Assembly (NCBI GenBank): GCA_964016885.1
Contig: OZ024741.1
Location: 237,212,001 to 237,276,000 of the forward strand
From: Eledone cirrhosa
Lineage: Eukaryota
DNA length: 64,000 nt
Direction: 5' to 3'
The notes beneath the pieces are model-generated. The model was given only the letters and a program-made list of their open reading frames with translations, ran no database searches and was not told the origin of the DNA. The stretch's first letter is position 1. Each line of letters starts with the position of its first letter. Positions 3,892 through 61,064 of this stretch are shown here, in pieces. The position numbers and the translations under genes are program-made.

Positions 3892-4226
3892 CATCATTCA
3901 TCATTTCACATCTGCTTTTTCCTGCTTGCAAGGGTGGGACAGGAACTGATTCTGGGTTGATTTCTACAGCTGGATACCCTTCCTAACACCAACCTCATTT
4001 ACAGTGAGTGCTGGGCGCTTTTTTGCCGTGGCACTTCCACGACCACTTTGCAGTGGAATGATATGAACCCGAGTCCCTATCATCTCATTTCTACAGCTGA
4101 GTAAACTGGAGCAATCTTAAATAAAGTGTCTTGCTCAAGGAAACAACACATCACCCAGTCTGAGAATTGAACTCACAACCTTTCTATTGAAAGGCCAATG
4201 CTCCAACCACTAAACCATGTGCCTCT
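3892..4226 (-). mobile_element. tRNA-derived SINE family B copy ((ATG)n tail)
   Basis: Reverse complement of 4752-5086; the tail of the same family is at 1-31. Confidence 0.85.
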
Positions 4227-4229
4227 AAA

Positions 4230-4296
<67 letters not shown>

Positions 4297-4462
4297 TATA
4301 TTTTGCTGGCCTTGTGCCTAAAATAGTAACAATTATATATAATATATATATACTAAATATATATATATAATATATACATATAATATATATATACTATATA
4401 TATATATATTATATATATAATATATATATATTATATATATATATATACTATATATATATATA

Positions 4463-4645
4463 TAATTGTTTCTACTTTTGGCACAAGGCCACCAGTGCAT
4501 TACTGGTACCTTATTCTATCGACCCCGTAAGGATGAAAGGCAAAGTTAACCTCGGCGGGATTCGAACTCAGACCATAAAGGGGCGTAACTCTATGCTGCA
4601 AAGCATGGCGTCCAACCATCTACCGATACTGCCAATCCACCGCCT
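4463..4645 (-). mobile_element. SINE family A copy
   Basis: Homologous to 1671-1861. Confidence 0.85.
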
Positions 4646-4687
4646 ATATATATATATATACATATATATTATATATATATATTATAT

Positions 4688-4721
<34 letters not shown>

Positions 4722-4751
4722 GGGCGGTGGATTATATATATTATATATATA

Positions 4752-5083
4752 GGCACATGGCTTAGTGGTAAGAGCATTGGCCTTGCAATCGAAATGTTGT
4801 GAGTTCAATTCTCAGACCCGTTGATGTGTTGTTTCCTTGAGCAAGACACTTTATTTAAGATTGCTCCAGTTTACTCAGCTGTAGAAATGAGATGATAGGG
4901 ACTGGGGTCCATATCATTCCACTGCAAAGTGGTCGTGGGGGTGCCACGGCAAAAAAGCACCCAGCACTCACTGTAAATGAGGTTGGTGTTAGGAAGGGTA
5001 TCCAGCTGTAGAAATCAAGCCAGAATCAGTTCCCGTCCCACCCTTGCAAGCAGGGAAAACCGGACGTAAAATGATGATGAGGA

Positions 5084-13799: not shown

Positions 13800-15138
13800 T
13801 ATCTATCAAGGTGACTTACTACCAGTGATCCCATCTTTCAAAAAACATCAAATAGGATCAGATCAAGGCTGAAATAGAATCAGTCAACAGCATTATTGGT
13901 AATGTAAAAACCAACGAGATTACTGAAACACATAAGCTGCTTACCAGTGCAGCATTATTAGTTGTTGACAGTCTGGGAGTTTAAGCTTCCAAAAAGGGCA
14001 AACAGGGGAAAATAGAAGCTCTATTCTGGAAACAGAATTGAGAGAAACAACATTGACTGGAGAAAACATCTTAGTCTCCTGGAAGAATTAAAAGATGGAA
14101 ATCATAATCTAACCTCTAAAGAAAAAAAAAATATGAACTTGAAGCTGTAGGCTGTATTTGTGTTAACTAAAGACAAAAATACACTGTGGCAGTCTGAAGA
14201 TTCGGAATTTTGAAAATCAACAACAGCAATTCTATCAAAATAAACGTTTTCAATCAAACCCTTCTCAGTGTTATAAAGAACTCGAAGGTAAATACAACAT
14301 GGAGAATGTGCTTCCTGATCCAGTTGAGATAACTGAGTTTTGGAACAACATCTGTGGAATACCTTCTTATAATAATGAGACAGAGTGGCTTCAGAGAGTA
14401 AACATCAACTAAATTAGAATGAAAAACAAGATAACATCAGCATTTATTCCAGTCATGTCAAGCAGTTTGTTACAAGAATGGCAAGCTGGAAGACACCTGG
14501 CCCTGACGGCCTCCAAGTATTCTGGTATAAGAAAATGGGCAACATGCATGATAGAATAGACAAGCACTTAAACGAGTGCTTGCAGCTAGAAGTCCCAAAT
14601 TGGATGACCAAGGGTTGAACAGTCCTTATAGTGAAGGACAAAGCGAAGGGAAATGTGACTAATAGGGTGCCTTCCAATCATTTGGAAATTGTTGACTGGG
14701 ATTATTGGGAATAAGATATACAAACATCTTGAAGAAGTGAATCTCCTCCTAAATGAGCAGAAAGAGTGTCATAGAGGGTCCTGGAGAACAAAGGACCAGT
14801 TATTAATCGATAAGGCGATTCTAAAGAACTGCAAAAAAATGAAAAAGAACTTGGCAATAGCTTTTATAGATTACAAGAAAGCCTACAACACAGTCCCCCA
14901 CTCTTGGTTAAAGAAAGCCTTCAATCTTGTAGGTGTAGCAGATAACATCAAGGAAATTCTGTTCAACAGCGTGGAGCAATGGAGAACAGAATTGTCATCT
15001 GGTAATGAAGTTCTAGGAGAAGTTTGCATCAGACGAGGCATTTTCCAAGGGGACTCATTATCACCTTTGTTATTTATTATTATACTGATTGCTCTTACTC
15101 TTATTCTTAGAGAAACAAATAGTGGATTTTACCTGTGA
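13800..15138 (+). pseudogene. R4/Dong-like non-LTR retrotransposon RT fragment, degenerate
   Basis: [54 protein letters not shown]; many stops; truncated before YMDD. Confidence 0.8.
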
Positions 15139-15470
15139 AACAAGTCCACCACATTTCCAACAAAGAGCTGTGTGCGCACATGCATCAGCCTGCAGCCTCC
15201 CTATGGATATGTCCTCCACCTGCTGCCAAATAATCCTACCAGGGCTTTTTTGGTGCAGCAGCTACAGGCTGGAAGAGGCTTCACATCAGATGGCTGGGTA
15301 TCATTAATGAAGATCTCTAGAGGCTCGATGCCACCTTGGAGGTGCAGAGGGGCTGGCATGGGAGTGCCAGCGATGGAGGGCACGGGTGGACCTGGTCAGC
15401 TCTACACATGATGATGCCTCTGGGATCACTGGCCTAGGGTAACCCCAGTCATCGAGCAAGAGCAAGAAGA
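15139..15470 (+). mobile_element. GC-richer 3' fragment of a different LINE (RTE-like?) ending in a CAAGAG/CAAGAA tail
   Basis: Abrupt composition change at the R4 truncation point and a short repeat tail; family call is tentative. Confidence 0.35.
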
Positions 15471-15567
15471 ATATATATATATATCAGCTCTCTTCCGATC
15501 GAGCATTGTTTTCCTCTTACTTTTTCACTCCTACGGATATTTCTACCCACATACACGCACGTATATA

Positions 15568-15790
15568 TCATCATCATCATTTAACGTCCATTTTCCATGC
15601 TAGTATGTATTAGACAGGTCAGGCGACCATGTCTTGCTCATAAAGGACCGTTTCTGACCAGATTTCTACAGCTGGATGCTCTTTCTAATGCCATCCACAT
15701 TTACAGTGTGGGCTGGGTGCTTTTAGTCATGACATCTACATGACCACCTTACAGTGTGGTCGGGGTGCTTTTTGTCACGACACATTTATG
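15568..15790 (-). mobile_element. SINE family B-related 3' fragment
   Basis: (CAT)n-TTTAACGTCC..TTTCTACAGCTGGATG; similar pieces at 19072-19330 and 25780-25846. Confidence 0.65.
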
Positions 15791-17079
15791 TATATTATAC
15801 ATGGTCCTTTTGTGTTCATCAATCAATAACCGTTTTTCAGTTGTACACATTGGTCATCTAACACTTGTGTAAAGATTAAGCACTCAACTTAGTAAATATC
15901 CTTTCCAGACTGTGATGTAATCGCTACGGTAATTTTTTGACAAAAAGTTAAAAGTCATCAAATGCTTTTTTACGATTAATCATCGTAATTAATCACTTTT
16001 TAAAGTTAACAAAGTTAAAACCATGCACTCAAATTAAAATAAGGTTTAAAAAATGAAATTTCAATTTAAAATAATATCTTTAAAAAAAATGAATAGATAC
16101 TGAAAAAGAATAAATAAATAAATTCGTTGGAAAAAATATAAAATAAAAAAAATTATAGAATGTTGTTAAAGTTAACTGATATGTAAATTTAAATTAAAAT
16201 CTTCCAACGAAAGAACATTTTGTTATTTTACAAATATCATATTAATGAAATCATAATTTTAGTAAATATTTTCCAAGTTCTTCATTAATACTTAAAATAC
16301 ACAGTAATTCATGAGAAATACGATAACATAAAGATTAATCAATGAAGCTATTATAGACAAGGAGAGTAGCCTCTCTTGGACCAGTGACTGCAATATTATG
16401 TGGCAAACCAACAACGAGAGAGAGAGGTTGGGGGCACTGAATTAATATATTCATTAAATTGGTATTTCAGTGGTGGATGGATAGTATTTTTTTGTGACTA
16501 TTTAGACTACACCTGGCATAACCCTAAGAATACGGCTGTCACTGCAATTTAATCAAATCCTTATTGGCATATGTGCATGTACATTATAGAAATGGCTTTT
16601 ACAGGACTAGAACTGTTTCATTCGAAGGAAATCATCAGGAAAGTGTCATAACATATATGATATGTATGATGATTATGTTTCTCAGTAAAAAAACTCAATG
16701 AACGTTTGTCCAGAGCATCAATAATTCAAAATTCAAAATATATGTATATAGTGATATATCCTTAGAGAAACATAGTATTTTGTACATATATTTAGAAAGC
16801 ATACAGTACTTATGAAATAGTATATACTTTAAGGTGGAAAAGTTATTATATTCCTTATGGCCGTTGTTTCATAGTCCCTAGAGCCAAATTGAAAATCAAT
16901 TGCGGTCTTTAGTCATTTCTGTTGTAAGGTTTAACTTTTTAAGGCCAGCCTTCACAACCTCATCCCAAGATCTATATATATATATCAGAATAGAACCAGT
17001 TAGAACATTACTCAACAAAGTACTTGGTATTTGGGGTAGTACAGTATGGCGATGTTAATAAGAGTCGGGACTCCATGGT

Positions 17080-17430
17080 TGAGCTCTTGCCGTTTCAACA
17101 GCTAGTTCTGGACTGTTAGCCAAAAGGCTAACTTGCTATATCATCAGGGGCATAGTTTGTCCATATAAGGGTATAAACTGTCCATCCAATTGTAAATTCT
17201 CTTTATAGGATGTTGCAGAAACGTTTTAGAAGGAATTGATTGTATTTTATATATAAGATACACATATACTTTTTTATATATATATTTTTATATATTTTGG
17301 GACAGCATATACCCTTATATGGACAGACCATGCCCCTGATGATATGGCCAGTCAACTGTAAGGCCCTTTGGCTTACAGTCCGGAACTAGCTGTTGAAATG
17401 GTTAGAGCTCAGCCATCAGATCCCGATTCT
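17080..17430. repeat. Inverted pair of Penelope pLTR-like segments containing hammerhead core motifs
   Basis: 17080-17183 is the diverged reverse complement of 17299-17410; each has CTGATGA...GAAA. Confidence 0.65.
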
Positions 17431-17584
17431 TTGTAATATATATATATATATATAACCGCGTCGGCAGAATGACTGTCCATCGGAGCACAGAGGGCCCCTC
17501 GCAGACCGGTCTTCCAACCACGACCCAGCCCTCGCGGCGGCCGCCACGCTCGGGGAAGACCATATAATCCAACACCGTGCGGGA

Positions 17585-18136
17585 ATGACTGGCAGAGGAG
17601 AGACCACCATGTCGGTGGAACAACACCCTGAGAATCGGGAAAGGGCTCTAGCAGATCAAGGGCCAGGCGTCCAAAATGAACAACATAACGACAAAACGTG
17701 CAACTGCAGAGCGAGCACGCAGTGCCCCCTGCAGGGAAGATGCCTGACGAAGGGCCTGGTATATAAATGTGTGGTTAACACACACAATATAAAGCGCACC
17801 TACATTGGCGCAACATCCACGACCTTTAAATCGCGGATGTATAACCACACAAACTCTTTCAAGGACTGGAGTAAGAGGCACTCTACTAGGCTGGCGGACC
17901 TGGTGTGGGACTTGAAGGACAAAGGCACCCCGTATGCCCTTAACTGGAGTATCGTTTGGCACGCGCATGCATACTCGGCTGGAAACAGAAAGTGTAGGCT
18001 ATGCCTATACGAGGCCATGGAGATAGTCAGACTGAAGGATGATGCGGTCAACCTGAAATTAGAAATAATCATGACATGCAGACACCAGAGAAGGTGCACA
18101 CTCTCCGCATGGAGTTCACCGGGAAGCCCAGGCTAA
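17585..18136 (+). CDS. Penelope-like element GIY-YIG endonuclease (C-terminal fragment, 5'-truncated)
   Basis: CNCR-x4-CPLQGRC, LVYKC...TYIGATSTTFKSRMYNH, CRLCLYE, CRH: typical Penelope EN domain; no RT upstream. Confidence 0.88.
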   Translation: MTGRGETTMSVEQHPENRERALADQGPGVQNEQHNDKTCNCRASTQCPLQGRCLTKGLVYKCVVNTHNIKRTYIGATSTTFKSRMYNHTNSFKDWSKRHSTRLADLVWDLKDKGTPYALNWSIVWHAHAYSAGNRKCRLCLYEAMEIVRLKDDAVNLKLEIIMTCRHQRRCTLSAWSSPGSPG

Positions 18137-18606
18137 AGGCATGCAGCGGAGCATGCACCGACCAGAGTGGCGAAACGGGTTCAAGGGATCAGACACCATA
18201 CCCTGATGACTATATATGCCCCGTGGGGTAAACTGAAATAACCCAGGATGCATACCCGACTCTGCACGTCACCCTAGGCAAGAACATCGCCTGAGCCGCG
18301 ACAGGTTGACCCGGATTCCACTGACTTTCAGTCAAATACATTACACCTATAGGACAATATACCTCAACCACAGTGACATACTCCAGTATGGCCGGTCCAC
18401 CACTCCCATGCATGTGTATCTTTTCAATAGAGAGTCCATACTCTCCACGTATTCCATCCTGTAACACATATATGTTCTGTATATCCCATGCTTCTCCTGT
18501 GTACTATCTCATACGCATAAACGTTCCTCCTTTTTTATATATCCCTATGTGACGTTATATGTATATTTTTAATATATTGCATATTTCTTTTATATATGTG
18601 TATATA

Positions 18607-18647
<41 letters not shown>

Positions 18648-18934
18648 GTATGTGTATATATGTATGTGTATGATTATATTGTTTATATAGGTGCATGCTT
18701 ATAACAAAATGCATCATTTCATGTATGACCCATTCTATGACCCATTGTGTGTCTTTATATGACGTTGTGTATATATCCTATTTGTGTATATATATATATG
18801 TATATATCTTTGTAGGCATGCGTGGGCCTGTATGTGAATATGCGCATATTTGTAAAAGTGTATATGAGCCAGTGTGTGTGTGTACAAGCACCCAATGTAG
18901 GGAAAGGGCTTGTTTGTGTGTGTGTATATATATA

Positions 18935-18974
<40 letters not shown>

Positions 18975-19439
18975 ATAATAATAAATTTGAACACTAAAAT
19001 CCAACGTCATATAAAATTAAGGGTGAAAGCAGCGATTCTTTGCTTAATCTGTTATTTTAATAAATATATATATCATCATCATCATCATCATCGTTTAACG
19101 TCCATCTTCCACGCTTGCATGGGTTTGGACGGGAGTTTTCCCACTTGAGGCAAGATTGGTTGTCCTGCTCGTATAGGACTGTCTGGGGGGGTTTTCTACG
19201 GCTGGATGCCCTTCCTAACACCAACCACGTTTACAGTGTGGACTGGGAGGTTTTTACCATGTTACCTACATGGCCACATTACAGCGTGGACTGTGTGTTT
19301 TTTTTTTCGTGACACCTGCACGACCTCATTTGTTTCGGACTGGATGTTGTGGTACCAACATAACTTCACATTGGAAGGGGTGGTGTGGATGGGGTGGGGG
19401 TAGTGGGACGGGGGTGTATTTTGTTAGAGGTGCCTACTG

Positions 19440-19604
19440 ACTGTAGGTTTCGCTTTGTACTTAGGCAAGGCGGGTCTTCTGTATAACTGTGTAGCGCCAA
19501 AGATCTCGGTCCAATGACATTGTCTTGGAGAGGTGTAAGTGTGTGAGGTCGGAATTTATCAAGTCGTCCCAGGTTTTTCTGGGTCTGCCTACTCCGTGGA
19601 TACA

Positions 19605-19605
<1 letters not shown>
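19440..19605 (-). mobile_element. RTE LINE 3' end fragment
   Basis: Encodes GVGRPRKTWDDLINSDL...DRDLWR. Confidence 0.7.
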
Positions 19606-19694
<89 letters not shown>

Positions 19695-20559
19695 GAGCGA
19701 GTCTGTATCTGTGCCTGTATATATGGACACGTGTGTATATGTGCGTGTGCATGTGGGAAAAAGGAAAAAAAAGGGTGGGGGGTCTATGTATATGTCTGAA
19801 CGTGTTTGTGTATACGAGTATATATACGTGTATGCATGTGTGTGCGCCTGTGTGTGTGTGTGTTGATGTATATGGGCATGTAGGCAGGCGTCTGTGTATG
19901 TTTATAGTTTTATATATTCTCCTTAAGTGTGTGTGTATAGCGAGAGTCTATGCGTACGGATGTTGTTATCTATGTAATTCTGTGTGATTCTGTGTGTGCG
20001 TGTGTATGTATATGTGTGCGTGAGTGCGCGCGTGGACGTGTGAACTACCAAACCCAGTAGTAATTCATCGAAGTGTGGCAGAAACGCGACAGCTGATCAT
20101 GGTCAGTCGAATGACACCTGTTGCTCAAAATTACGATGACGTAGAAAAACAGCAACCAATAACAGGACGTGCGAAGGTGATGTTTTTGACGCTAACACCC
20201 CGATGAGAGAATTTGCTCCGACATCGTTAGAGGTGTCCGTCTAACCTGCGGATCCAGAATCAGACAGACCCACATAATAATCGTGTCTCGAGCTGTCCGC
20301 CGGCGAAACAGTTGTAACACACAATAAATTGAGTTCAGATGCATCACTGATTTTTCGTTTTATATTATATGTATATATATATATATATATAATTAAAAAA
20401 ACGAAGTATATATATATATATATTTCGTTTTTTTAATTTGTTTTGCAAAATTTCTTATCTGAAAATGTGTGTTGAAACAGATATTGTTATACTTTGGGAG
20501 GGTCATGCTGCCAAAAAAAAACACATGCACCTGTTGGTTTTCACTTCAATTTATTATAA

Positions 20560-21506
20560 ACTAGCAGCAGTACCCAGCGTTGCCTGGGTAGGTAAAATAA
20601 TATCTGCTTTGATGAAAAGGTGTTGATCTTAGCGACTGCGAGTTTCTTGAAAATCGGTCGTAAGGTGTAGCAAATGGCGAAATGTTGAGTGAAATCGTAT
20701 GGAATATGTGGGAGGTGGAAAAATCATATTTTGAAGAGTTAAACGGCTGCCACGCCGTCCCCGAACAAAATATGCAAAGTGTAAAGCTACTATAAGATGT
20801 GCAATGATAGGTTCTCTCGTAGTATAAAAGTTGAACCAAATAAATTGATTTATGTGTGAGGTGGAGCCGAAGTTTCGAATTTGAACGAAATCGGTTGAAA
20901 AATGTGGGAGTTAGAGCCGAGAAGGCGGAAATTTGAGCGAAAAGGTGGTATTTTCGAATATTTAAGCGGGCTGCCACGCCGTTCCTGAACCAAAAATCCA
21001 AAATGTAAAGCTACTTTAAGACGTGAAATAATTAGACAGATCTAGCGTAGTGTAAAATTTGAACAAAGTAGGTTGATTAATGTGGGAGCTAGAGCCGAAA
21101 AAGTGGAACTTTGAGTCTAAAAGTGGTATTTTTGAATATTTAAGCGGCTGCCACGCCGTCCCTGAACAACAAATGCAAAATATAAAGCCATTACAGGATG
21201 TGCAATGATAAATTCTATTTTGCTTTAAAATTTGAACGAAATCGGTAGCAAAATGTGGGAGCTAGAGCCAAAAATCTTATTTTTCGATACCTAAAAAAAG
21301 GTGACCCCCCCCCCCCCCCCCCCTATCGATTTTTATCTGCAGAATGACCCCGGAATAAAAAAAAACGATACGCTGATATATAGAAAACACTCCCTGATGA
21401 CTAATCTATGAGCCTGTAAAGTTTCATGAAAATCGGTCGTAAGATGTAAGCCCTTATAGGTAATACACAGACACACACACATACTTAATTTTATATATAT
21501 ACAGAT
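20560..21506. mobile_element. Non-autonomous Helentron/HINE (DINE-1-like) element
   Basis: Begins ACTAG followed by hairpin TACCCAGCGTTGCCTGGGTA, ends TATATATATACAGAT; internal subrepeats GGCTGCCACGCCGT at ~20745, ~20969, ~21146. Confidence 0.65.
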
Positions 21507-21635
21507 TTCCAGTCGGTTGGTTGGTTGGTTTGATAACCGGATGGTTGTATATATATTGTCAAAGCTCTTTCATCGCATATTCTGTGACCTCCTCAGTGAC
21601 TGGGTTTTTATTTTGTGTCTCTCCTTTGTTCTGTC

Positions 21636-23410
21636 CTATACCATCTTGTTTTTGCCGGTCTTAAACTCCTCTGTTATAGCCTGCAAAACAATAATAAACA
21701 GGAGCGGGCTAAGGACGGAGCCCTGGTGGACGCCAACTTGTACACTAAATTCCTCGCTATAGTCATTGTTAATCCTGACTTTGCTGACTGCTCCTCTATA
21801 TATAGCTTGTACAGCCTTCACAAGCCACTCATCTACTCCTAGTTTTCTAAGAGCCCACCAAATTATGTTACGGAGCACTTTGGCGAAAGCTTTCTCCAGA
21901 TCAACAAATGTTAGGTAGAGTGGCTTACTTTTAGCTAGGTTCTTTTCCTGTAACTGTCTCACAAGGAAGAGGGCATCAGTGGTGCTTTTGCCTGACACAA
22001 ATCCAAACTGCATCTCATCTAGATTTACCCTGTCGCTAATCAATTGTGCTATAACTCTTTCTGTTACTTTGATTGCCTGGTCCACCAGTTTTATACCTCT
22101 ATAGTTACCTCTATCTAGCGCATCCTCTTTACCCTTATAGCAATTGACAATGATGCTGCTGCACTACTCATATGGTATGACGCCATCTAGTATTACTTGG
22201 TTTACAATACGCGTGGTTATGGTGTGTCATACTGATCCAGATGCTTTCAGCATCTCAACAACTATTCCTGATGGACCGGCTGCTTTCCCAGTTTTTATAT
22301 CTTTAATTGCCTTACTAACTACATTGCTACTGACTTGTACTGCTAGGCCTTCAATGGGGTCTGCTTGGGGTAGGGTCTCTTTCTCCTATGCATTCTCTTC
22401 ATCCAGTAATCTTTCATATTGGCTCTTGCACGCTTCTTTCTTCTCAGCATATGAGGGCAAGTGCATCATTATCATCCCGGTCACACTTCTCACCGATGAC
22501 ATTACAATTTTCACTAACACACTGTCTACCAATCCTGAACACCTCCCGTTTCTGGTCCTCCCGCTGCAAAATATGCTTGAATTTTTTATCCTCCACTTCC
22601 CTTCTAGCAAAGTATACTTATCTCCTAGCTTCTCTCCTGGTTTCTATGTAATGTATCCTGCTCCCCCCATTCTCCCATGCTTGTCTCGTGGCTTTAATTG
22701 CTTCATCTACCATATTGTTCCACCACCAAGTCACTCTCCTTCTCCCTGTAGTCTTGCCCCAACCACAAATCTCGTCTGCCGCTTTTAGTAGGTTATTTTT
22801 TAGGAACTCCCAATGCTCTTTTATTTAAATGTCTCTATCTGTTCTTAGGTGTCAAGTAAAATATCTCTGAATTTGTTACTGGCTGAGGGATCTTTCAGCT
22901 TCCAGATCTTTCTTCTGCAGGTTGCCTTTTGTTTCAAAGCTCGTCTAACTCTGACAGTGTGGTCGCTGACTACGAGGCTGTGTTGGGAGGCACATTCCTT
23001 GCCGAGAAGGCTTTTGTGTTTATAACCATCCATCTATCTTGTCCTTTGGTAAGGATAAAATCTATCTGGCTAGTAAGCTCTCCGGATCTATAGGTGATCA
23101 GGTGGTTGTTGGATTTTTTGAAGTTTGTGTTACGTATCGTCAGGTCATTGGCATCGCAGAATTCTAGAAGCCTGTAACCTTCATGTTTTATGCCAATCCC
23201 ATCACCTCCATGGACTCTGTAGAAGCCATCACTATGTTTCCCAACGTGTCTGTTAAGGTCCCCCGCAATGAGTAGGAAGTCATTGTCATTTGTTAGAATG
23301 GTAGTATGCATTAGGGACTCGTAAAACCTATCTTTAAGTTCATATGGCAACCCAAATTGGAGTGCGTAAGCGGATGTAATTGTAGCTATTGTTTTATTTA
23401 GGACTAGTCT
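21636..23410 (-). pseudogene. RTE-clade LINE fragment (APE endonuclease plus N-terminal RT)
   Basis: APE motifs AGDLNRHVG, SQIDFIL, SQHSLVV; RT motifs QFGFVSGKSTTDA, DLEKAF, GVHQGSVLSPLLF; stops and frameshifts. Confidence 0.9.
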
Positions 23411-23936
23411 GAATATATAGTATCATATATACTATGGCCATTCCTAACTTTGGACTTATCAACCTGGAATTGAAAACACATTTCGGACCATACTAGATAC
23501 AAAGACCCAACTTACTCCTTCCATATACACACACATGCACACGGGCCTGTGCATGTGTGTGTGTGTGAACACACACGTGCAGGTGCATGTGTACACACAT
23601 TCACACACAACACCCACACATGTATCATAATATGCACACAACCACCCACTACATGTCTGCACCACTCACCCCGACGCCCACACCCGCACACTGGACCACT
23701 TCCCAACCGACCACTGCTACCCCTCCCCACTCTCCTTTTTATTTATATATTTTCTTTCTAATTTTATTTCAACAACTTTTTTTTTATTTTCTTTGCGTTT
23801 TTCCTTTTGTGTTTTTCCTGAGGAAGGGCAAATTCCCAATACCTTGATTATGTAACTCACTCTTCTTCTTTCAAGCGTGAAACTAATACACTTCATATTA
23901 TTGCATCCTACTTGTTTGTTGATTTTTTTGTTTCCT

Positions 23937-23970
<34 letters not shown>

Positions 23971-24209
23971 GTAAGTATGCATGTATACGTACATACATAT
24001 ATGTATACAGACGTACAGTAGCATGCACATATATATATATATATACATATATACATACATATGCATACAGGTACACATACATATATGCACGTATCAGTTT
24101 AGCGGCGCTAACGTCGCTTTGTTCGTTTGTAAACAAACTGAACAGCCTGAATTTATGCCATACGGTGTTAAGGCAACCACGTCACCTTTTTGTTCAACAC
24201 TGACACAGG

Positions 24210-24254
24210 AACGATGTACTAGTTTCAAGCTTGTTAGCTATCATCAGCACCGTT
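24210..24254 (-). ncRNA. Minimal type I hammerhead ribozyme
   Basis: Reverse complement of AACGGTG-CTGATGA-TAGCTAACAAGCTT-GAAA-CTAGTA-CATCGTT. Confidence 0.85.
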
Positions 24255-24424
24255 TACCCATCTGCCAGATAGTTGAACGTTCGAAAGTATATACTTTCCT
24301 TATGAAAATTAACGGCTGAGCAGCCTAATTTGCATATTGAGTGAGTTAAATCGGTCAGGCATACCGAAAACGATAAATTGGAAAGTATATACTTTCGAAC
24401 GTTCAACTATCTGGCAGATGGGTA

Positions 24425-24469
24425 AACGGTGCTGATGATAGCTAACAAGCTTGAAACTAGTACATCGTT
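24425..24469 (+). ncRNA. Minimal type I hammerhead ribozyme (predicted cleavage after 24462)
   Basis: Stem I AACGGUG/CAUCGUU, core CUGAUGA, stem II AGCU/AGCU, GAAA, palindromic stem III ACUAGU, GUA cleavage triplet. Confidence 0.88.
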
Positions 24470-24809
24470 CCTGTGTCAGTGTTGAACAAAAAGGTGACGT
24501 GGTTGCCTTAACACCGTATGGCATAAATTCAGGCTGTTCAGTTTGTTTACAAACGAACAAAGCGACGTTAGCGCCGCTAAACTGATACGTGCATATATGT
24601 ATGTGTACCTGTATGCATATGTATGTATATATGTATATATATATATATATGTGCATGCTACTGTACGTCTGTATACATATATGTATGTACGTATACATGC
24701 ATACTTACATTTAAGTAAGTGCCATACTAAGAGTGAGAAATGAAATTTCGTTTTCATTTTGTTTCAATTTATCGTTTTCGGTATGCCTGACCGATTTAAC
24801 TCACTCAAT

Positions 24810-24862
24810 ATGCAAATTAGGCTGCTCAGCCGTTAATTTTCATAAGGAAAGTATATACTTTC
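24810..24862 (+). promoter_or_regulatory. Octamer motif plus TATA-containing palindrome upstream of the ribozyme (also 25276-25328)
   Basis: ATGCAAAT at 24810-24817; GAAAGTATATACTTTC palindrome at 24847-24862; promoter role is inferred. Confidence 0.4.
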
Positions 24863-24890
24863 GAACGTTCAACTATCTGGCAGATGGGTA

Positions 24891-24935
24891 AACGGTGCTG
24901 ATGATAGCTAACAAGCTTGAAACTAGTACATCGTT
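24891..24935 (+). ncRNA. Minimal type I hammerhead ribozyme (predicted cleavage after 24928)
   Basis: Identical to 24425-24469. Confidence 0.88.
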
Positions 24936-25356
24936 CCTGTGTCAGTGTTGAACAAAAAGGTGACGTGGTTGCCTTAACACCGTATGGCATAAATTCAGGC
25001 TGTTCAGTTTGTTTACAAACGAACAAAGCGACGTTAGCGCCGCTAAACTGATACGTGCATATATGTATGTGTACCTGTATGCATATGTATGTATATATGT
25101 ATATATATATATATATGTGCATGCTACTGTACGTCTGTATACATATATGTATGTACGTATACATGCATACTTACATTTAAGTAAGTGCCATACTAAGAGT
25201 GAGAAATGAAATTTCGTTTTCATTTTGTTTCAATTTATCGTTTTCGGTATGCCTGACCGATTTAACTCACTCAATATGCAAATTAGGCTGCTCAGCCGTT
25301 AATTTTCATAAGGAAAGTATATACTTTCGAACGTTCAACTATCTGGCAGATGGGTA

Positions 25357-25401
25357 AACGGTGCTGATGATAGCTAACAAGCTTGAAACTAGTACATCGT
25401 T
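25357..25401 (+). ncRNA. Minimal type I hammerhead ribozyme (predicted cleavage after 25394)
   Basis: Identical to 24425-24469. Confidence 0.88.
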
Positions 25402-25698
25402 CCTGTGTCAGTGTTGAACAAAAAGGTGACGTGGTTGCCTTAACACCGTATGGCATAAATTCAGGCTGTTCAGTTTGTTTACAAACGAACAAAGCGACGT
25501 TAGCGCCGCTAAACTGATACGTGCATATATGTATGTGTACCTGTATGCATATGTATGTATATATGTATATATATATATATATGTGCATGCTACTGTACGT
25601 CTGTATACATATATGTATGTACGTATACATGCATACTTACATTTAAGTAAGTGCCATACTAAGAGTGAGAAATGAAATTTCGTTTTCATTTTGTTTCA

Positions 25699-25734
<36 letters not shown>

Positions 25735-26026
25735 AGTCCTATATGAGCGAGACACAGTCACCCGACCCAACTTACCTCAAATGGGACAAACCCGTCTAAC
25801 CCATGCTAGTGTGGAAAGTAGGCGTTAAACGATGATGATGATGATGTATTTTTATATATATATCTGCACTAATAGAAATTTCAAAACGAAAACATTAGTT
25901 GCATTTCTCCAATGGATCTGATTATTTAGACGTATTTTCGTCTTGAAACTGCTGGCAATGTAGAGTTAAGTTAACTCAAATACTCAACTTCCACATGTGT
26001 TGATTGCTCTCACACACACACATATA

Positions 26027-26202
26027 TGAGGGTCAGCTGAAAAGTTCATGGAATGACCAAATGAGGTTTATTTTTTAACATAGTCCCTGGAAAGAAACAA
26101 TGCAGTTAGTAATAAGAAGAGTTTAAATGAATGCATGCAAGATTTCACAGCTCTAGCATCACTCCTCCATAGTTAGCCTATGAACGTTTCAGCTGACCCT
26201 TG
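26027..26202. mobile_element. Mariner-derived MITE
   Basis: TIRs TGAGGGTCAGCTGAAAAGTTCAT / ATGAACGTTTCAGCTGACCCTTG, TA flanks. Confidence 0.8.
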
Positions 26203-26950
26203 TATATATATGTATGTATTTGTATATAAGGACGTTGGAAGGCCAAAATGAAAAACAATATTTAATGAGATAGTTACTCTCTCCTACATACATGCTAACT
26301 ATACTGGACTGATGTGTTCACACACACAACTACCACCACCACTGCACCACACCTCACCATCATCATCATTATAAACCACCACTAATATCACTATCACTAA
26401 CACCATTTTCACCTAAACCACCACCACCACCACCAAGACCACACACCACCACTGCCACTGTCGTCACCATCACCACATTCCATAATTCAACTCTACCACC
26501 ATCATCATCACCGCCAACAAAGAAGCCTTTATGAGGCCGCTATGATCTCGGGTTTCCCATACATAGTGAAAAAAACGAGATGGTTACAGATGGAATATCT
26601 TTGATAATCGGTTTGCTGGATCAAGAATTTGGGCTAAAGAACAACAGCACCAAGGTATCATTGAGAATAGATCTTTTTTGAAGAAAATGGAAATATCCCG
26701 CCCGATTCACACGAAGGAACCCAACTTTAACCCCAACTAAGCCTTACCTGAACATATATACACGCAATGAATTAGCAGTAGCACTAACATAAAATGTTTC
26801 ATATTTGGGGTGTATGTGAAAGCAAATACGATATGTTTATGCATATGAACATATATAAGTCTCGCTATGAGAGTTTTAAGCTGTGATTGTGTCCCACCTA
26901 CTTCAACGGCTACTGAGATGGTTGTGACAGGATAGCAGCTTAAAACCCTC

Positions 26951-27190
26951 ATATATGCTTATTATACACAAACTTATAAGATATCTCACTTTCCATTATC
27001 ACCTTCAAATTAAATACCTCTCCAGAAAAATGCAATTACTTTCAAAGCCCCCTCCCCTATATATATATATAATGCGAGAGGGGGGGGGGGGAGAATTGAA
27101 AGTAATTGCATGTTTCTGGAGAGGTATTTAATTTGAAGGTGATAATGGAAAGTGAAATATCTTATACGTTTGTGTATAATGAGAATATAT
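26951..27190. repeat. Long foldback (~90-bp arms)
   Basis: ...CACTTTCCATTATCACCTTCAAATTAAATACCTCTCCAGAAA... pairs with ...TTTCTGGAGAGGTATTTAATTTGAAGGTGATAATGGAAAGTG... Confidence 0.85.
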
Positions 27191-27224
27191 ATATACGCAG
27201 GGAATGTAACGCGGAGTTACTGTG

Positions 27225-27268
<44 letters not shown>

Positions 27269-27271
<3 letters not shown>

Positions 27272-28730
27272 TGGGTCCTCGATATACGGTAGTTCTTTAT
27301 CCGGTAAATTCACAGATACGGTTTTGGGTAATTACTACCATCAATTCTATTTACGGTAAAAAAAAATTCACAGATACGGTTTTTGATCGTGTTTTGTTTA
27401 TATTGTACCGTAGCGCCACCTGTAGTAAGCAATACATCCCCCTTGAATTCGTGGAAACTGACTGCTATTCGAATTCTAGGAAAATTGTGTTAGTACTGCT
27501 ATCGTACTAACTGACCTTACCAAGAAACTGGCCAATCACGAGCGAGTTCAGATATCGATCGATGACGTCATAACTCTTAGCTGATTACTTCAGTTCGGCA
27601 AACTAGCGTGTCCTCTCAGTGAGAGAATTTTTGCCGAACTGAAGTGATCAGTTAAGAGTTATGACGTTATTCAAAGTAAGAGAAAACCCGACGGCGTGTT
27701 TTTGAAGCATAATTATCACGGCATATCTTATAACCCCATATCTCATGGCCCCAAAACGCCCTGTGAATATTGCTGATGCAGATGGAAAGGCCAAACGCAT
27801 GAGGAAGAGCCTGACTTTGGAGATAAAGCTGGACATTTTGAAAAGGAAGGAGCAGGGGCAAGGTACGTCCGCCATAAGTCGTAACTTAGGCCTAGCCCAG
27901 TCTACAGTCTGGACTGTTTTAAAAAATAGTGAGGCTGTCAAAAAAAGCTGGGGAGAATACTACGAGTCTACAGAGTAAATTGTTGACCAAACATCGTGAG
28001 CCGATTATGGATAGAATGGAAAGGTTGCTCAAAATTTGGATCGACGACCAAAATCGTCAAAATATGCCTCTGTCTTTAAATGTAATCAGTGAGAAAGCAT
28101 TGTCCATTATTGACAGGCTCAAGACTGAAATGGGGGTGGAGGACATTGTATTCAAGGCAAGCAAAGGCTGGTTTGATAAGTTCAAACAATGTTCGAGTCT
28201 TTACAACATAAAAGTTACAGGTGAGGCTGCCAGTTCCAACAAAGAGAGTGCTGAAAAATTCAAGGCAGAGTTAGAGAAATGCTTTGCAGAGAAGGAGTAC
28301 AGAAAAAAGCAGGTTATTAATTATGATGAAACAGGACTTTATTGGAAAAAGATGACCAGTAATACCAGTAATTGACAAGGGGGAGAAAAGTGCGAAGGGT
28401 TTCAAAGCCTCAAAGGACTGCGTTACTCTGTTACTTGGAGGGAATGCAGAAGGAGATTTAAAGCTAAAACCACTCATTATCTACCATTCTGAAACCCCAA
28501 GAGCACTCAAGGGGTTACTTAAGCAATACCTACCAGTGATATGGAAGTCTAATAAGAAGGCATGTCTGATCACTTCAATTCACCAGGATTTTTTCACCTC
28601 ATATCTGTCACCAACCCTTAAGGAATATGCATTAGCTAACAACATTGCCAACCGTTTTCTGCTATTAGTGAACAACGCCCCCAGCCACCCACGGGCAATG
28701 GAAGACTGGTCAGAAAATATTGAGGTTTTG

Positions 28731-28761
<31 letters not shown>

Positions 28762-29797
28762 CACACACACACACCACAGCTCTCATTCAGCCGATGGATC
28801 AAACAGTCATCAAAACATTTAAGGCATACTACCAGCGGAGAACCATGCAGCAGCTGATAAAGGGCACAGATGGGCCTGACAAGCCCACGATCAGGGAATG
28901 GTGAAAATTGTACAACATCAAGCACGGCTTAGACAACATCAAGGCATCTTGGGAAGAAGTGAAGCAGTCTACCATGACCTGGAAGAAATTATGGCCAGCA
29001 TGTGTGAATGACTTCCAAGGCTTTGCTTAGGACATTGGTGCGATAAAAAAAGATATTGTAAATCTCTGCCATAGAGCTGGCTTCGATGGTGTTAATGATG
29101 ATGATGTGCAAGACTTTTTGGAAAGCCACGCTGAACCACTCTCCAATGATGAACTCATAGAACTAGACAAGGCGATACAGGAGACAGAAAAAGAAGAAGA
29201 GGAGGACGAAGAACCTGTGCGTGGCTTGGACATAAAATTCTAAGAGAATGTCTCGGGAGTATCGAAACAATCTTAAAAACCCTGAAGGAGCGTGACCCCA
29301 GCCCTGCTAGGAGCAGCAAAGTGGCTCAAGACGTCGAGAAAAGTGTCAAGATTTACCAAGAAATGTATGAAGCCAAAAGAAACACCGCCAAACAGTCCTC
29401 CATCTACTCTTTCTTCAAGCCAGTCACACCTGCCAACCGTGCTACAGCTGGCCCTTCAACATCCACTGCAGTCAACGAGTTTGTTGGTTTTGAGCCTCCC
29501 ACATCACCTTCATCCTCCCCTGCCAATTCAGCCCAAGATGAGTAAGGGCTGAAACCCATACTGTCCCTTAGCCTTGGGAGGGACAAATGAAGTGGCACAT
29601 CATCTGATGGACTACGCGGCATGTGTAAGGTACAGTAAATAAAAAAAAAACATTATTTCTTTTCTGTAGGATGACTTTTTCGATGTGCTGGAACGCATCC
29701 CTATTTATTTCATGTTACAATGAATTCTTTATACGGTAATTCGATATACGGTAAGGGTTTCAGGAACGCATATATACCGTATATCGAGGACTCACTG
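27269..29797 (+). mobile_element. Tigger/pogo DNA transposon, full length but degenerate
   Basis: 23-bp TIRs CAGTG(G/A)GTCCTCGATATACGGTA at 27269-27291 and 29775-29797; TA on the left, TG on the right. Confidence 0.92.
27745..29545 (+). pseudogene. TIGD1-like pogo transposase, disrupted
   Basis: psq HTH (RKSLTLEIKL), CENP-B HTH (FKASKGWFDKFK), NYDETGLYWK, LLLVNNAPSHP, TTALIQPMDQ; several frameshifts and stops. Confidence 0.9.
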
Positions 29798-29800
29798 TGT

Positions 29801-30447
29801 ATATATATATATAAAGTTGTATTCCTGCCTGTTTGTTTGTTCACGAACTCCTCCTATGGTTTTGGAGGTAGACCCCCATAACCATATATATATTCTGAAA
29901 CTACATTGCCCAGGGTACTTGGATAAGTAAATTTCATTTTAATCAAAGGGTTCCCCCGCTGAAAATGTTTTCCCTTTGATTTATATGAAATTTAAAGCAT
30001 AGGTAAATGACAAGATATGATGCCTATTCACAAAATTTCAGCAAATTTCAATAATATTAAGACATCCTATTGGGGGTTAAACCCCCTATTAGGGTTCCCC
30101 GGAGGCACAACACCCCACTGAAAATGTTTTCCCTTCAATTTATATGAAATTTAAACCATAGGTAAATGACAAGATATGATGCCTATTCACAAAAGTTTTG
30201 AATTGATATTTTGAAAAAAATTATTTACAAGAAACAAAATAAGAATAAGATTTAATAGTGTAATTTTGATTGATATATATTAAAAAAATATTGTTTTCCA
30301 AGTTTTCATGCATTACATTTTACATTGAGTAATATTGAAATGCAAAGTTTTTCTCCATAAACTATATCACTGATTTGAAATCAATCATCATTTTCTTACA
30401 AAAAAAAATGTAGGGAAACGCAGCAAGGTGCGGGTAATTCGGCTAGT
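29801..30447. mobile_element. Second HINE/Helentron-like non-autonomous element (opposite orientation)
   Basis: Starts TATATATAAAG with a (GTTT)n/(GCCT) tract, ends GCGGGTAATTCGGCTAGT; internal ~160-bp duplication. Confidence 0.5.
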
Positions 30448-30482
30448 ATATATATATATATACAGAGCGAGAGAGAGAGAGG

Positions 30483-30513
<31 letters not shown>

Positions 30514-30731
30514 CTTAAAATAATACACAGATACAATTTATCAGTCTTATTAATTTAACGCTTGTTGGAAAATTATTGCTTCAACGTATCGGGCATTGCC
30601 AGGATGGCTGCAGAGCGCCCGGGTTTATCATTGTTAGTCGTATGTGCACGAATATAAAGGATATTGTGAGTGTGTTGGTATTTTTATTTTTTGCTTGTGT
30701 GGGTGGTGGTTCGGCCTGTGTGTATTGCGTG

Positions 30732-30867
<136 letters not shown>

Positions 30868-47379: not shown

Positions 47380-48565
47380 AGATGATGTGGAATTCCACCT
47401 ACGGACGCGTTGTTTCGGGAATTACGGCTGCTACTGTTCCTTTCCTCATTGAGACGTGTAGCGTGCATTTGGAGGCTTGACCTAGATTTCGTCTCCGACC
47501 AGTACGAATGTGGTCTTTCTCCCTTCGGATGTCGCCATTCATATTTAAATATCGCTCTGTGTGGTACTGACTCCTCAGTCTGACCTGACCGCGGTGACAT
47601 ATACCAAAAACACCGACTCAATTGGTGACATATGTCTCCTCTCCGCCATGGCCTTGATTATGTCTCCCCACGACCCCATTTCCACTTGGCCTATACGCCG
47701 CTCTAAAGAAGAGATTCAATTTCCCCTTTTCAAGCATTTCCATCAGCATCTCTGAGTGAAATGCAATGAATGCCATTATCCATCACTAGTTCATTCACAG
47801 GGCTCCCCTCCAGGAATATTTCCTTCAGCATTTGTGTAATTTCACCACCCACGTCTTTAGTTCCGTCTATATTGTCATTCACCCCGATCTACAGTCGACC
47901 ATTGAGCGATACCTCTCCTGTCGGTAGTGCATCATATCCACTGCCAGTCGTTTCCAGTTATGCTCAACTGGGATGTTTCTCGTCTCGTGCGCACCCGGGG
48001 AGGGGTCGATGTACTGATACCTGTCACAACTCCTGACCACTTTCTGCATGCTCTTTCTGGTAACATCGGAGTCAATTTTCCTGGCTAGGAACAAGGTCTT
48101 GTCCACTCCAATGTGATGCATGGTATGCAGTCTCTTTAGCTCCGAGCCATTCAGCCAATACATTGCAGTTACGCTCCGCTCTGAACCCTCTGGGACGTCT
48201 AGCTAGGCTTTCTTCGCCCAGGTTAAAACGTCCACTTTATTCTTTTCCGAGGGCACAAAAATCACGTTCAGATTGAGGCCGAACTCAGCGACTAGCTCTC
48301 CCAGAATTCCCAAGCGTCACTTTATTAACATCTCTGCTGCCCCTTTTGCTCGTCCCCTCCTCTCATCGGTAATTACTGATCTCACCCATCTGAGTACAGT
48401 GGCTGAATCGGTTCCGATTTCGATGGTACTTAGTCCCCATCTCATGGTTAGATTCATTCCCTTCAGTACGGCGTCCAATTCGGCCACATTGATGTGGTTG
48501 CAGTCGTCCTTCTTCCTGGGCCAGGCTGTGTGCTCCACCTCGACACCTCCTATTTACAGAATGGC
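47380..48565 (-). pseudogene. Degenerate LTR-retroelement RH-integrase fragment
   Basis: HINVAELDAVLKG, TDSATV, HHIGVDKTL..CDRYQ; paralogous to 50040-51250. Confidence 0.75.
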
Positions 48566-48579
48566 CCCTACCACTACGG

Positions 48580-48745
48580 CGAATTTTTAAACGAATGGGT
48601 ATGCACATACCATATTTTCTTTTAAAAATTGGTTGTGGACCCCACATATCTCAATAACCCATGGCTTGTCACTCATGCATTTACCCAATGGGGGAAAACT
48701 ATCGGGTTTTCTACAGTTAAAATTTACCAGTGCATGTCGATTAAA
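48580..48745 (-). pseudogene. Internally deleted Penelope GIY-YIG fragment
   Basis: FNCRKPDSFPPLGKC (compare CNCR..CPL.G.C), then YVGSTT and HTHSFKN across frameshifts. Confidence 0.55.
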
Positions 48746-48929
48746 ATCTGTATTTGTTCTGTCGTTTAGGGTAGATGCGTTGGTGTTATAGGAATGTCCA
48801 CTTGCTATAGTTGATTTGGTGTGGTACAGTGGGTTGAGATGGAGATGAAAATGAGAACGGATTATTATAGAATATAAACTATCGTGGTCCATTTTACGAT
48901 TCGCCCACGACGTGAAAGAAATGCGATTG

Positions 48930-52297: not shown

Positions 52298-53276
52298 AAA
52301 ATGGTAAATAGACGAGGGACCTTCCCTCACGTCTATGTCGATAAACAATCTAACTAGGATACATCCTTTTACCACACCCTTAATGTAATTTATTTTAATA
52401 CACTGGTATAATTTATTCTTTTTTTTTTTCTCAATGATAAAACGATAATTTTTTTTTTACTTAAAATACTGTGCATTTCGGAAATTTAGAAGGCTGTTAT
52501 TATTGTATTGTTGTCAGAGCTACCTCATCAGACGGGCACACTAGGCATTTTTCTATTTTTTGTTTGGTAGATCTAGATAGAAGTTCAGTACCCATGGTTT
52601 TCATATGGTCTCCGAAACCAGGGACATGTGGACAAGAAGGAGGGAGTGTAGAGTGGGGTTAAGGGGTTCGCTTCTCAACCATGTGGGTTCGGGTTCAGTC
52701 CCACTGCGTGGCACTTTGGGCAAATATCGTCTATAATATTTGGTGGATTGATATCCTGCATACATACACAGACACACACATATATATATACAATACATTA
52801 GGGTGGGGGTGGGGGCAACAAGGAAAAAGAATAACCGAGAACAATACAGTATAATGATATATATGTATATATATATATATAAATGAAATAGAATGAAACG
52901 AAATTTCATTTCTCACTCTTAGTACGGCACTTACTTAAATGTAAGTATGTATGTATACAGACGTACAGTAGTATCTATATATATACATACATGCACACAT
53001 ATATATATATATGCACGTATCGGTTTACCGAACATTTATTATAATTGTTTCTACTTTAAGCACAAGGCCAGCAATTACCCAGTGCATTATTGGTACTTTA
53101 TTTTATCGACCCCGTAAGGATGAAAGGCAAAGTCAACCTCGGCGGGATTAATGCTCGGTTTGTTTGTTTGTAAATAAACAAACAGCCCGAATTACGCCGT
53201 ACAGTGTTTAGGCAACCACGTCACCTTTTTGGAAAGTATATACTTTCAGACGTTCAACCATCTGGCAGGAAGGTAT

Positions 53277-53319
53277 ACGATGCTGACGATAGCTAATAAG
53301 CTTGAAACTAGTACATCGT
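53277..53319 (+). ncRNA. Minimal type I hammerhead ribozyme (predicted cleavage after 53313)
   Basis: ACGATG-CTGACGA-TAGCTAATAAGCTT-GAAA-CTAGTA-CATCGT; perfect 6-bp stem I. Confidence 0.87.
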
Positions 53320-53532
53320 TCCTGTGTCAGTGTTGAACAAAAAGGTGACGTAGTTGCCTAAACACTGTACGGTGTAATTCGGGCTGTTTGTTTGTTTACA
53401 AACAAACAAAACGAGCATTATAATAAATGTTCGGTAAACCGATACGTGCATATATATGTGTGCATGTATGTTTATATATACATACTACTGTACGTCTGTA
53501 TACATATATGTATGTACTTATACATACATACA

Positions 53533-53639
<107 letters not shown>

Positions 53640-54565: not shown

Positions 54566-54612
<47 letters not shown>

Positions 54613-59752: not shown

Positions 59753-60729
59753 AAAATGGTAAATAGACGAGGGACCTTCCCTCACGTCTATGTCGATAAA
59801 CAATCTAACTAGGATACATCCTTTTACCACACCCTTAATGTAATTTATTTTAATACACTGGTATAATTTATTCTTTTTTTTTTTCTCAATGATAAAACGA
59901 TAATTTTTTTTTTACTTAAAATACTGTGCATTTCGGAAATTTAGAAGGCTGTTATTATTGTATCGTTGTCAGAGCTACCTTATCAGACGGGCACACTAGG
60001 CATTTTTCTATTTTTTGTTTGGTAGATCTAGATAGAAGTTCAGTACCCATGGTTTTCATATGGTCTCCGAAACCAGGGACATGTGGACAAGAAGGAGGGA
60101 GTGTAGAGTGGGGTTAAGGGGTTCGCTTCTCAACCATGTGGGTTCGGGTTCAGTCCCACTGCGTGGCACTTTGGGCAAATATCGTCTATAATATTTGGTG
60201 GATTGATATCCTGCATACATACACAGACACACACATATATATATACAATACATTAGGGTGGGGGTGGGGGCAACAAGGAAAAAGAATAACCGAGAACAAT
60301 ACAGTATAATGATATATATGTATATATATATATATAAATGAAATAGAATGAAACGAAATTTCATTTCTCACTCTTAGTACGGCACTTACTTAAATGTAAG
60401 TATGTATGTATACAGACGTACAGTAGTATCTATATATATACATACATGCACACATATATATATATGCACGTATCGGTTTACCGAACATTTATTATAATTG
60501 TTTCTACTTTAACCACAAGGCCAGCAATTACCCAGTGCATTATTGGTACTTTATTTTATCGACCCCGTAAGGATGAAAGGCAAAGTCAACCTCGGCGGGA
60601 TTAATGCTCGGTTTGTTTGTTTGTAAATAAACAAACAGCCCGAATTACGCCGTACAGTGTTTAGGCAACCACGTCACCTTTTTGGAAAGTATATACTTTC
60701 AGACGTTCAACCATCTGGCAGGAAGGTAT

Positions 60730-60772
60730 ACGATGCTGACGATAGCTAATAAGCTTGAAACTAGTACATCGT
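60730..60772 (+). ncRNA. Minimal type I hammerhead ribozyme (duplicate of 53277-53319)
   Basis: Identical core and stems. Confidence 0.87.
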
Positions 60773-60985
60773 TCCTGTGTCAGTGTTGAACAAAAAGGTG
60801 ACGTAGTTGCCTAAACACTGTACGGTGTAATTCGGGCTGTTTGTTTGTTTACAAACAAACAAAACGAGCATTATAATAAATGTTCGGTAAACCGATACGT
60901 GCATATATATGTGTGCATGTATGTTTATATATACATACTACTGTACGTCTGTATACATATATGTATGTACGTATACATACATACA

Positions 60986-61064
<79 letters not shown>

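What the first reader, a model, noticed from the sequence alone, without database searches (positions are those of the whole stretch)
24290..24400. Two independent insertions invert at the same palindrome GAAAGTATATACTTTC
Seen: at 24380/24381 and at 53231 an inverted partial copy is joined to a forward copy that begins exactly at GGAAAGTATATACTTTC, about 45 nt upstream of the ribozyme, although the inverted arms end at different points. The first case creates a ~330-bp-arm palindrome. Established: inverted-plus-tandem pLTR arrangements are characteristic of Penelope-like element insertions. Inference: this site marks a defined transcript 5' end or RT template-switch point, implicating Penelope RT/GIY-YIG machinery in mobilisation.
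Basis: partly seen in the sequence, partly recalled or inferred. Interest (0 to 1): 0.7.

Follow-up and report, generated by a model that had tools for sequence, protein, structure and literature searches.

The report
Two-armed hammerhead retroelement; shared breakpoint coincidental
Two copies of an abundant 466-base mobile repeat with a predicted self-cutting RNA motif join their back-to-back arms at the same short palindrome, but other copies break all along the repeat, so the match is likely chance; what is fixed is the two outer ends, which suggests a Penelope-type enzyme likely copies one RNA from both ends of the cut DNA.

Summary
At 24380 and 53231 an inverted arm joins a forward arm that starts at the palindrome, in two independent insertions (78% alike). 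The copy at 60684 duplicates the second. The inference that the palindrome is a defined 5' end or switch point fails. In 100 insertions picked by their far end, 2 of 173 inner breakpoints lie at the palindrome start (2.2 expected). Genome-wide, junctions there are at most 1.6 times a control site (p 0.11). Perfect fold-backs on it exist but are rare (11 loci; 14,180 units). The fixed points are the outer ends: when one arm ends at unit base 393, the other ends near base 334 (69 of 71, never 393), leaving a 59-base Penelope-type tail. The arms share private variants (6 vs 0.11 expected), join by microhomology, and in 18 of 69 neither arm can be a copy of the other. This fits priming from both target ends on one RNA, not fold-back. 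Intact Penelope-like elements here show the same geometry; no partner sharing sequence was found. It is a new non-LTR retrozyme family. The scan noted this architecture before on other DNA of this genome.

The parts
23966..24380 (-). Inverted arm of insertion 1 (inner end about u387, outer 'short' end u334 of the next unit, abutting (TA)n)
24380..24381 (.). Head-to-head junction of insertion 1; one G shared by both arms
24380..25704 (+). Forward arm of insertion 1: two full 466-nt units plus 393 nt, 100% identical, ending at the 'long' end u393 in (TA)n
24381..24396 (.). 16-nt palindrome (u2-17); also at 24283-24298, 24847-24862, 25313-25328, 53232-53247, 60685-60700. A normal internal part of every unit; 13,005 of 14,180 genomic copies keep the normal upstream bases
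24427..24467 (+). Predicted type I hammerhead with a short palindromic helix III (core 24432-24462, predicted cut after 24462); repeated at 24893-24933, 25359-25399 and, inverted, 24212-24252
   Evidence: sequence read by eye; Rfam HH9 only 18.5 bits, below gathering 52
25646..25704 (+). [quoted passage not shown]
23939..23965 (.). (TA)n target, left side; (TA)n also follows 25704
52879..53231 (-). Inverted arm of insertion 2 (older subfamily; inner end u108/109, outer end u393 with tail), interrupted by a dispersed repeat at about 53034-53151
53231..53534 (+). Forward arm of insertion 2, u1 to about u325-331, then (TA)n
60334..60987 (.). Segmental-duplication copy of insertion 2 (junction at 60684); not independent

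Best explanation
This is a protein-free 466-base repeat with a predicted hammerhead, inserted as two back-to-back arms with fixed outer ends and scattered inner ends, likely because a Penelope-type enzyme primes reverse transcription from both ends of cut (TA)n DNA on one RNA, so the palindrome junction shared by the two window copies is likely chance. Shown: (TA)n flanks, outer ends at u334 and u393 (one per arm), dispersed inner breakpoints, microhomology joins, and variants shared between arms. Inferred steps: (1) A Penelope-like RT-GIY-YIG protein, probably a dimer, cuts both strands of (TA)n. (2) One end primes at u393 and the other at u334 of the same RNA. (3) The u393 cDNA often stalls on reaching the u334 primer, leaving a tail-only arm; otherwise it reads on through multimeric or circular RNA. 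(4) The two cDNA 3' ends stop at variable places and are joined by 1-7 nt of microhomology. The palindrome acts only as occasional long microhomology, giving rare perfect fold-backs.
For: Sample: the first 100 of 845 tail+TA matches; 78 inverted, 17 without a detected inverted arm, 5 unresolved. Palindrome start 2 of 173 breakpoints, expected 2.2. Opposite outer end at u326-338 in 69 of 71 visible, none at u393. In a set picked by an internal site, 20 of 63 clusters could be read at both ends by eye, and all 20 were short+long (2 of them overlap the first sample). Tail-arm breakpoints at u325-345: 15 of 95, scan p about 0.01. Genome-wide at u336/337: 39 hits in 15,153; 29 of 30 examined are junctions and 22 are tail-only arms. 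Microhomology in 54 of 59 non-filler junctions against 46.5% by chance. Six variants are shared by both arms, 4 of them private to the insertion, against 0.11 expected. The hypervariable block is identical in both arms in 24 of 45 insertions, against 5.1% between insertions. In 18 of 69 neither arm can be copied from the other, and 5 share no sequence. RT+GIY-YIG ORFs of 636-1096 aa are present. Three loci of one such family have head-to-head arms in (TA)n with a one-sided tail of about 64 nt (L253, L257, L259). In vitro, an anole Penelope-like protein extends both strands from two RNA sites flanking the tail (PMC11167929).
Against: No autonomous element sharing this segment was found in 50 GIY-YIG loci out of 10,597 candidates, so the driver is inferred. 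51 of 69 insertions are also compatible with fold-back by length. Variants shared between arms could come from gene conversion after insertion or from a uniform source array; 27 variants sit in one arm only. The genome-wide excess at u336/337 is only about 2-fold over the u70/71 control and not far above the palindrome's upper bound (about 0.25%, 0.11% and at most 0.18%). A mild preference for the palindrome start (up to 1.6-fold) is not excluded, and 29 of the 59 palindrome hits were not fetched. Two such junctions 29 kb apart have p about 0.01 for this site alone. The main sample is one young subfamily on one chromosome, and breakpoints are accurate to about 1-2 nt, less within u200-335.
Confidence: 0.72

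Rival explanations
1. One reading: the palindrome marks a defined transcript 5' end or obligatory RT switch point, so inversions recur there.
For: Both window insertions start at u1/2. At least 11 junction events at u1/2 were seen among 30 fetched hits. The upper-bound rate is 1.6 times the control. There are 11 perfect fold-backs. Some rotifer Penelope pLTRs carry a palindrome at the 5' end (PMC3846280, passages).
Against: 2 of 173 breakpoints against 2.2 expected. At most 25 non-fold-back events in 14,180 units. 13,005 units keep intact upstream sequence. The control comparison gives p 0.11.
Confidence: 0.07
2. Fold-back or self-priming: one cDNA is made, folds back or switches onto itself, and the endonuclease resolves the second arm at the tail boundary (the self-priming model of PMC3846280).
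For: It explains variants shared between arms. 51 of 69 insertions fit by length. Perfect fold-backs exist at 11 and 3 loci.
Against: In 18 of 69 neither arm is contained in the other, and 5 share no sequence. Tail-only arms next to long arms are common. Inner ends are not matched (7 within 15 nt, 4.6 expected) and arm lengths are not correlated (rho 0.15, p 0.21).
Confidence: 0.1
3. Both target ends prime, but on two separate RNA molecules; similarity between arms comes from later gene conversion or a few dominant source loci.
For: Arms often overlap in sequence. 21 of 45 insertions do not share the hypervariable block, and 27 variants lie in one arm only.
Against: 4 private variants occur in every unit of both arms and in no other sampled arm. 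The strict short+long pairing and the pile-up of tail-only arms at the second priming site are simplest on one RNA.
Confidence: 0.11

Closest known systems
Animal non-LTR retrozymes (PMC7229834, passages seen; bioRxiv 10.64898/2026.07.22.740005, part 1 of 5 and passages)
   Same: Non-coding tandem monomers, each with a type I hammerhead; low GC; thousands of dispersed copies; proposed to be non-autonomous Penelope derivatives.
   Different: The unit is 466 nt (about 170-450 reported). 'Inverted' occurs 0 times in PMC7229834 and only in a reference title in the preprint, whereas 78 of 100 insertions here are head-to-head. Cleavage, expression and circles are untested here.
EN+ Penelope-like elements with inverted pLTR and one-sided tail (PMC8557442, passages; PMC3846280, passages; PMC11167929, parts 1-2 of 4)
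   Same: Adjacent inverted 5'-truncated copy, tail at one end only, AT-rich or (TA)n targets, hammerhead with short palindromic helix III (PMC4209133, passages), two initiation sites flanking the tail.
   Different: No ORF. The tail is 59 nt rather than 30-40. No pLTR sharing sequence was found. Junction data argue against the published self-priming model for this family.
L1 twin priming
   Same: Two target ends prime on one RNA; inverted plus forward segments joined by short microhomology.
   Different: Both priming sites are fixed and internal, 59 nt apart. Arms often overlap and run over several units, which needs a multimeric or circular template or strand displacement.

Membership tests
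Animal non-LTR retrozyme | Tandem monomers of a few hundred bases, each with a type I hammerhead motif | tested here: met
   466-nt units, motif in each; Rfam match only sub-threshold, so the motif rests on reading the sequence
Animal non-LTR retrozyme | Non-autonomous, no coding capacity | tested here: inconclusive
   No ORF scan was run on the unit; it is 466 nt with an internal microsatellite of variable length, too short for RT-EN
Animal non-LTR retrozyme | High dispersed copy number | tested here: met
   14,180-30,858 exact matches to short motifs; these count units, not insertions
Animal non-LTR retrozyme | Self-cleavage and accumulation as linear or circular RNA | not testable with these tools
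   Needs RNA. Indirect hint only: 22 breakpoints just after vs 8 just before the predicted cut, uncorrected p 0.008
Penelope-like element (insertion signature) | Adjacent inverted 5'-truncated copy, head-to-head | tested here: met
   78 of 100 sampled insertions
Penelope-like element (insertion signature) | Tail at one end only, between two initiation sites | tested here: met
   69 of 71; 20 of 20 readable pairs among 63 clusters
Penelope-like element (insertion signature) | AT-rich or (TA)n targets | tested here: met
   TA repeats at the unselected short end in most rows; the tail end was selected for TA
Penelope-like element (autonomous) | ORF with RT and GIY-YIG | tested here: not met
   The arms consist wholly of the 466-nt unit; such ORFs lie elsewhere in the genome
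Penelope-like element (partner) | Autonomous element whose pLTR shares this segment | tested here: inconclusive
   None in 50 loci of 10,597 candidates; three nearby hits (L242, L258, L259) look like separate insertions, L259 examined in detail

The most novel reading that the evidence does not exclude
A Penelope-type RT dimer primes both ends of a double-strand break at two fixed sites 59 nt apart on one circular hammerhead RNA and copies it round and round in both directions of the target. Thousands of genomic copies then record rolling-circle twin priming, which would explain Penelope's inverted repeats, tandems and one-sided tail in one mechanism and replace the self-priming model. The palindrome is at most a minor annealing aid.
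Probability: 0.4. Interest if true: 0.65.

Novelty: new member of a known kind. Interest (0 to 1): 0.36.

Why it matters
The specific claim, a defined inversion site, is not supported and adds little. The family matters more. How Penelope-like elements make their tandem and inverted ends is named as an open task in PMC8557442, and PMC11167929 leaves the steps after initiation unvalidated. These young copies give countable footprints (one arm from each of two fixed sites, shared private variants, non-overlapping arms, microhomology joins) that separate twin priming from self-priming. They also supply a short RNA for a direct in vitro test. My searches found no paper applying twin priming to Penelope insertions (open-access library only; supplements not read, so such data there would have been missed).

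Tried and rejected
Defined 5' end at the palindrome: rejected. Single origin of the two window loci: rejected (78% identity, different arms). 60684 as a third case: rejected, it is a duplication. Breakpoints exactly at the predicted cut (u81-87): 1 of 173, expected 2.6. A cluster of inverted-arm ends at u88-116 (14 of 78) is not significant after a scan correction (p about 0.3). Matched inner ends and arm-length correlation: none. Fold-back excess at the long palindrome: 11 vs 3, p 0.023 at equal rates but p 0.23 after allowing 17 vs 9 breakpoint combinations. Raw upstream-mismatch counts were misleading until loci were read: of 30 palindrome hits, 11 were point variants (9 in one array), 2 were duplications and 6 were three fold-backs counted twice; of 21 control hits, 7 were point variants. 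Rfam gathering search: no hit. The microRNA-family hits merely reflect the long inverted repeat and TA tracts. Sequencing runs: no RNA holder listed. Partner search: none in 50 loci. A 12-base T-rich match between this tail and one autonomous family's tail was judged too weak. One search stopped on an error because the subfamily had no common polymorphic sites; it was redone.

Full report
Observation. The window lies in a 3.0-Gb animal genome. Positions 24380-25704 hold 2.84 identical copies of a 466-nt unit, preceded by an inverted arm at 23966-24380. I number the unit from the first G of the palindrome junction (u1 = 24380). The 334-nt perfect arms and 80-nt spacer are as described. At 53231 an older subfamily (78% identical) shows the same layout, with its forward arm starting at u1. 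The inverted arms stop near u387 and u109, and each junction shares one G. The copy at 60684 lies in a 98.3% identical duplication. The two insertions are independent: the tail (below) is on the forward arm in the first and on the inverted arm in the second.

The unit. Read by eye, it carries a type I hammerhead: helix I at u48-52 with u84-88, the CUGAUGA core at u53, a 4-bp helix II, GAAAC, a short palindromic helix III, and a predicted cut after u83. Rfam gives no gathering hit and only a weak HH9 match on each unit (18.5 bits). A short palindromic helix III is typical of metazoan hammerheads that work as dimers (PMC4209133, passages). Short motifs from the unit match 14,180 to 30,858 times.

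Test 1, unbiased sample. I took the first 100 of 845 places where the long end meets (TA)n and segmented each against the cyclic unit. 78 have an adjacent inverted arm, 17 do not, and 5 were unresolved because the array ran off the region or into a gap. That gives 173 inner breakpoints. Two lie at u465-u4 (2.2 expected under uniform spread) and seven within u1-18 (6.7 expected). The palindrome is not a hotspot in this sample.

Test 2, genome-wide. 13,005 of 14,180 palindrome copies keep the normal six upstream bases. Requiring two mismatches just upstream leaves 59 hits. Of the 30 fetched, 11 are junction events (including both window loci and one local duplication), 6 are three perfect fold-backs counted twice, 11 are point variants and 2 are duplications. 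Of the 29 not fetched, 15 have fold-back-type letters, so non-fold-back events number at most 25. The same design at u70/71 gives 25 of 14,933; 14 of 21 examined are junctions. The ratio is at most 1.6, p 0.11. Perfect fold-backs centred on the palindrome occur at 11 loci, against 3 on a 6-8-nt palindrome. This is what longer microhomology would give (p 0.23 after allowing for the number of breakpoint combinations). The two window junctions lying 29 kb apart has an expectation of 0.006-0.014 for this site alone and 1.4-3.3 for any site. I read it as a coincidence selected after the fact, and a mild local preference cannot be excluded.

What is fixed. With one arm ending at u393, the other ends at u326-338 in 69 of 71 visible cases, never at u393; 2 end elsewhere and 7 ran off the region. 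In loci picked by an internal motif, 20 of 63 clusters could be read at both ends by eye and all were short+long; 3 were ambiguous and the rest too diverged. The 59 nt between the two ends is the one-sided Penelope tail (PMC8557442, passages). In vitro, an anole Penelope-like protein cuts and extends both target strands and initiates at two RNA sites flanking the tail (PMC11167929, parts 1-2).

How the arms are made. Tail-arm breakpoints pile up at u325-345 (15 of 95; scan p about 0.01). At u336/337 there are 39 hits in 15,153; 29 of 30 examined are junctions and 22 are tail-only arms. That is about twice the control rate, so the excess is modest. Of 71 junctions with short gaps, 54 show microhomology, 5 are blunt and 12 have 1-5 filler bases; 7 with longer inserts were left out. 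Chance microhomology is 46.5%. Both arms share 6 variants (0.11 expected), 4 of them private and present in every unit, while 27 variants lie in one arm only. The hypervariable block is identical in both arms in 24 of 45 insertions, against 5.1% between insertions. In 18 of 69 insertions neither arm could be a copy of the other, and 5 share no sequence. Together these fit priming from both target ends on one RNA better than fold-back self-priming, the model proposed for rotifer Penelope elements (PMC3846280, passages). Whether the template is a circle or a uniform multimer is not decided; later gene conversion could also homogenise arms.

The driver. A GIY-YIG search found 10,597 candidates, of which 150 were scored. 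[quoted passage not shown] Three loci of one family show head-to-head arms in (TA)n with a one-sided tail of about 64 nt (15 loci examined). None of 50 loci has a pLTR sharing sequence with the unit. Penelope machinery is therefore inferred from geometry.

Comparison and verdict. The element is best filed as a new animal non-LTR retrozyme family (PMC7229834, passages; bioRxiv 10.64898/2026.07.22.740005, part 1 and passages) with Penelope-type insertions; RNA behaviour is untested. Earlier notes of this scan describe the same two-ended architecture for this or similar families elsewhere in the genome. My reading was written down before those look-ups, and they are not independent support. One note prompted a check: 22 breakpoints fall in the 33 nt after the predicted cut against 8 before it (uncorrected p 0.008), which could reflect cleavage or RT pausing at the base of the long stem ending near u108. 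The finding as stated is not supported; the family's insertion footprints are of moderate specialist interest.

Noticed in passing
window 53634-54362 (-) and 61059-61785 (-): An older, about 75% identical 1.8-unit copy of the same family directly after insertion 2, with a near-palindrome variant (2 mismatches) at 53965.
   Followed up: partly
window 51923-56589 vs 59378-64000: Tandem segmental duplication with a period of about 7.45 kb, 98.3% identical; a third copy lies about 4 kb beyond the window end (G000:C2:237280234).
   Followed up: partly
window 53034-53151 and 8 other places (family D20): A dispersed repeat of about 120 nt, SINE-like by my recollection only, inserted into the inverted arm of insertion 2.
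   Followed up: no
window 3898-5077 and 47931-50689: Other long inverted-repeat pairs (345 nt at 92%; about 580 nt at 76-77%), possibly further two-armed insertions or DNA transposons.
   Followed up: no
L302 (G000:C3:189092584): A tail-only arm is joined to an inverted arm whose inner end is u394, exactly where the tail primer would sit on a circular template; a single case.
   Followed up: no
L108-L116 (G000:C2:383.00-383.03 Mb): A long satellite-like array of about 442-nt units of the family, spanning at least 22 kb by the hit positions, with point variants recurring among units.
   Followed up: partly
L248, L249, L250, L251: Open Penelope-like frames of 636-1096 aa with RT and/or C-terminal GIY-YIG matches; several such families carry their own minimal hammerhead motifs.
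   Followed up: partly
L127, L137, L195, L206: Young arrays running at least 5 kb (10 or more units) at about 100% identity to the unit.
   Followed up: no
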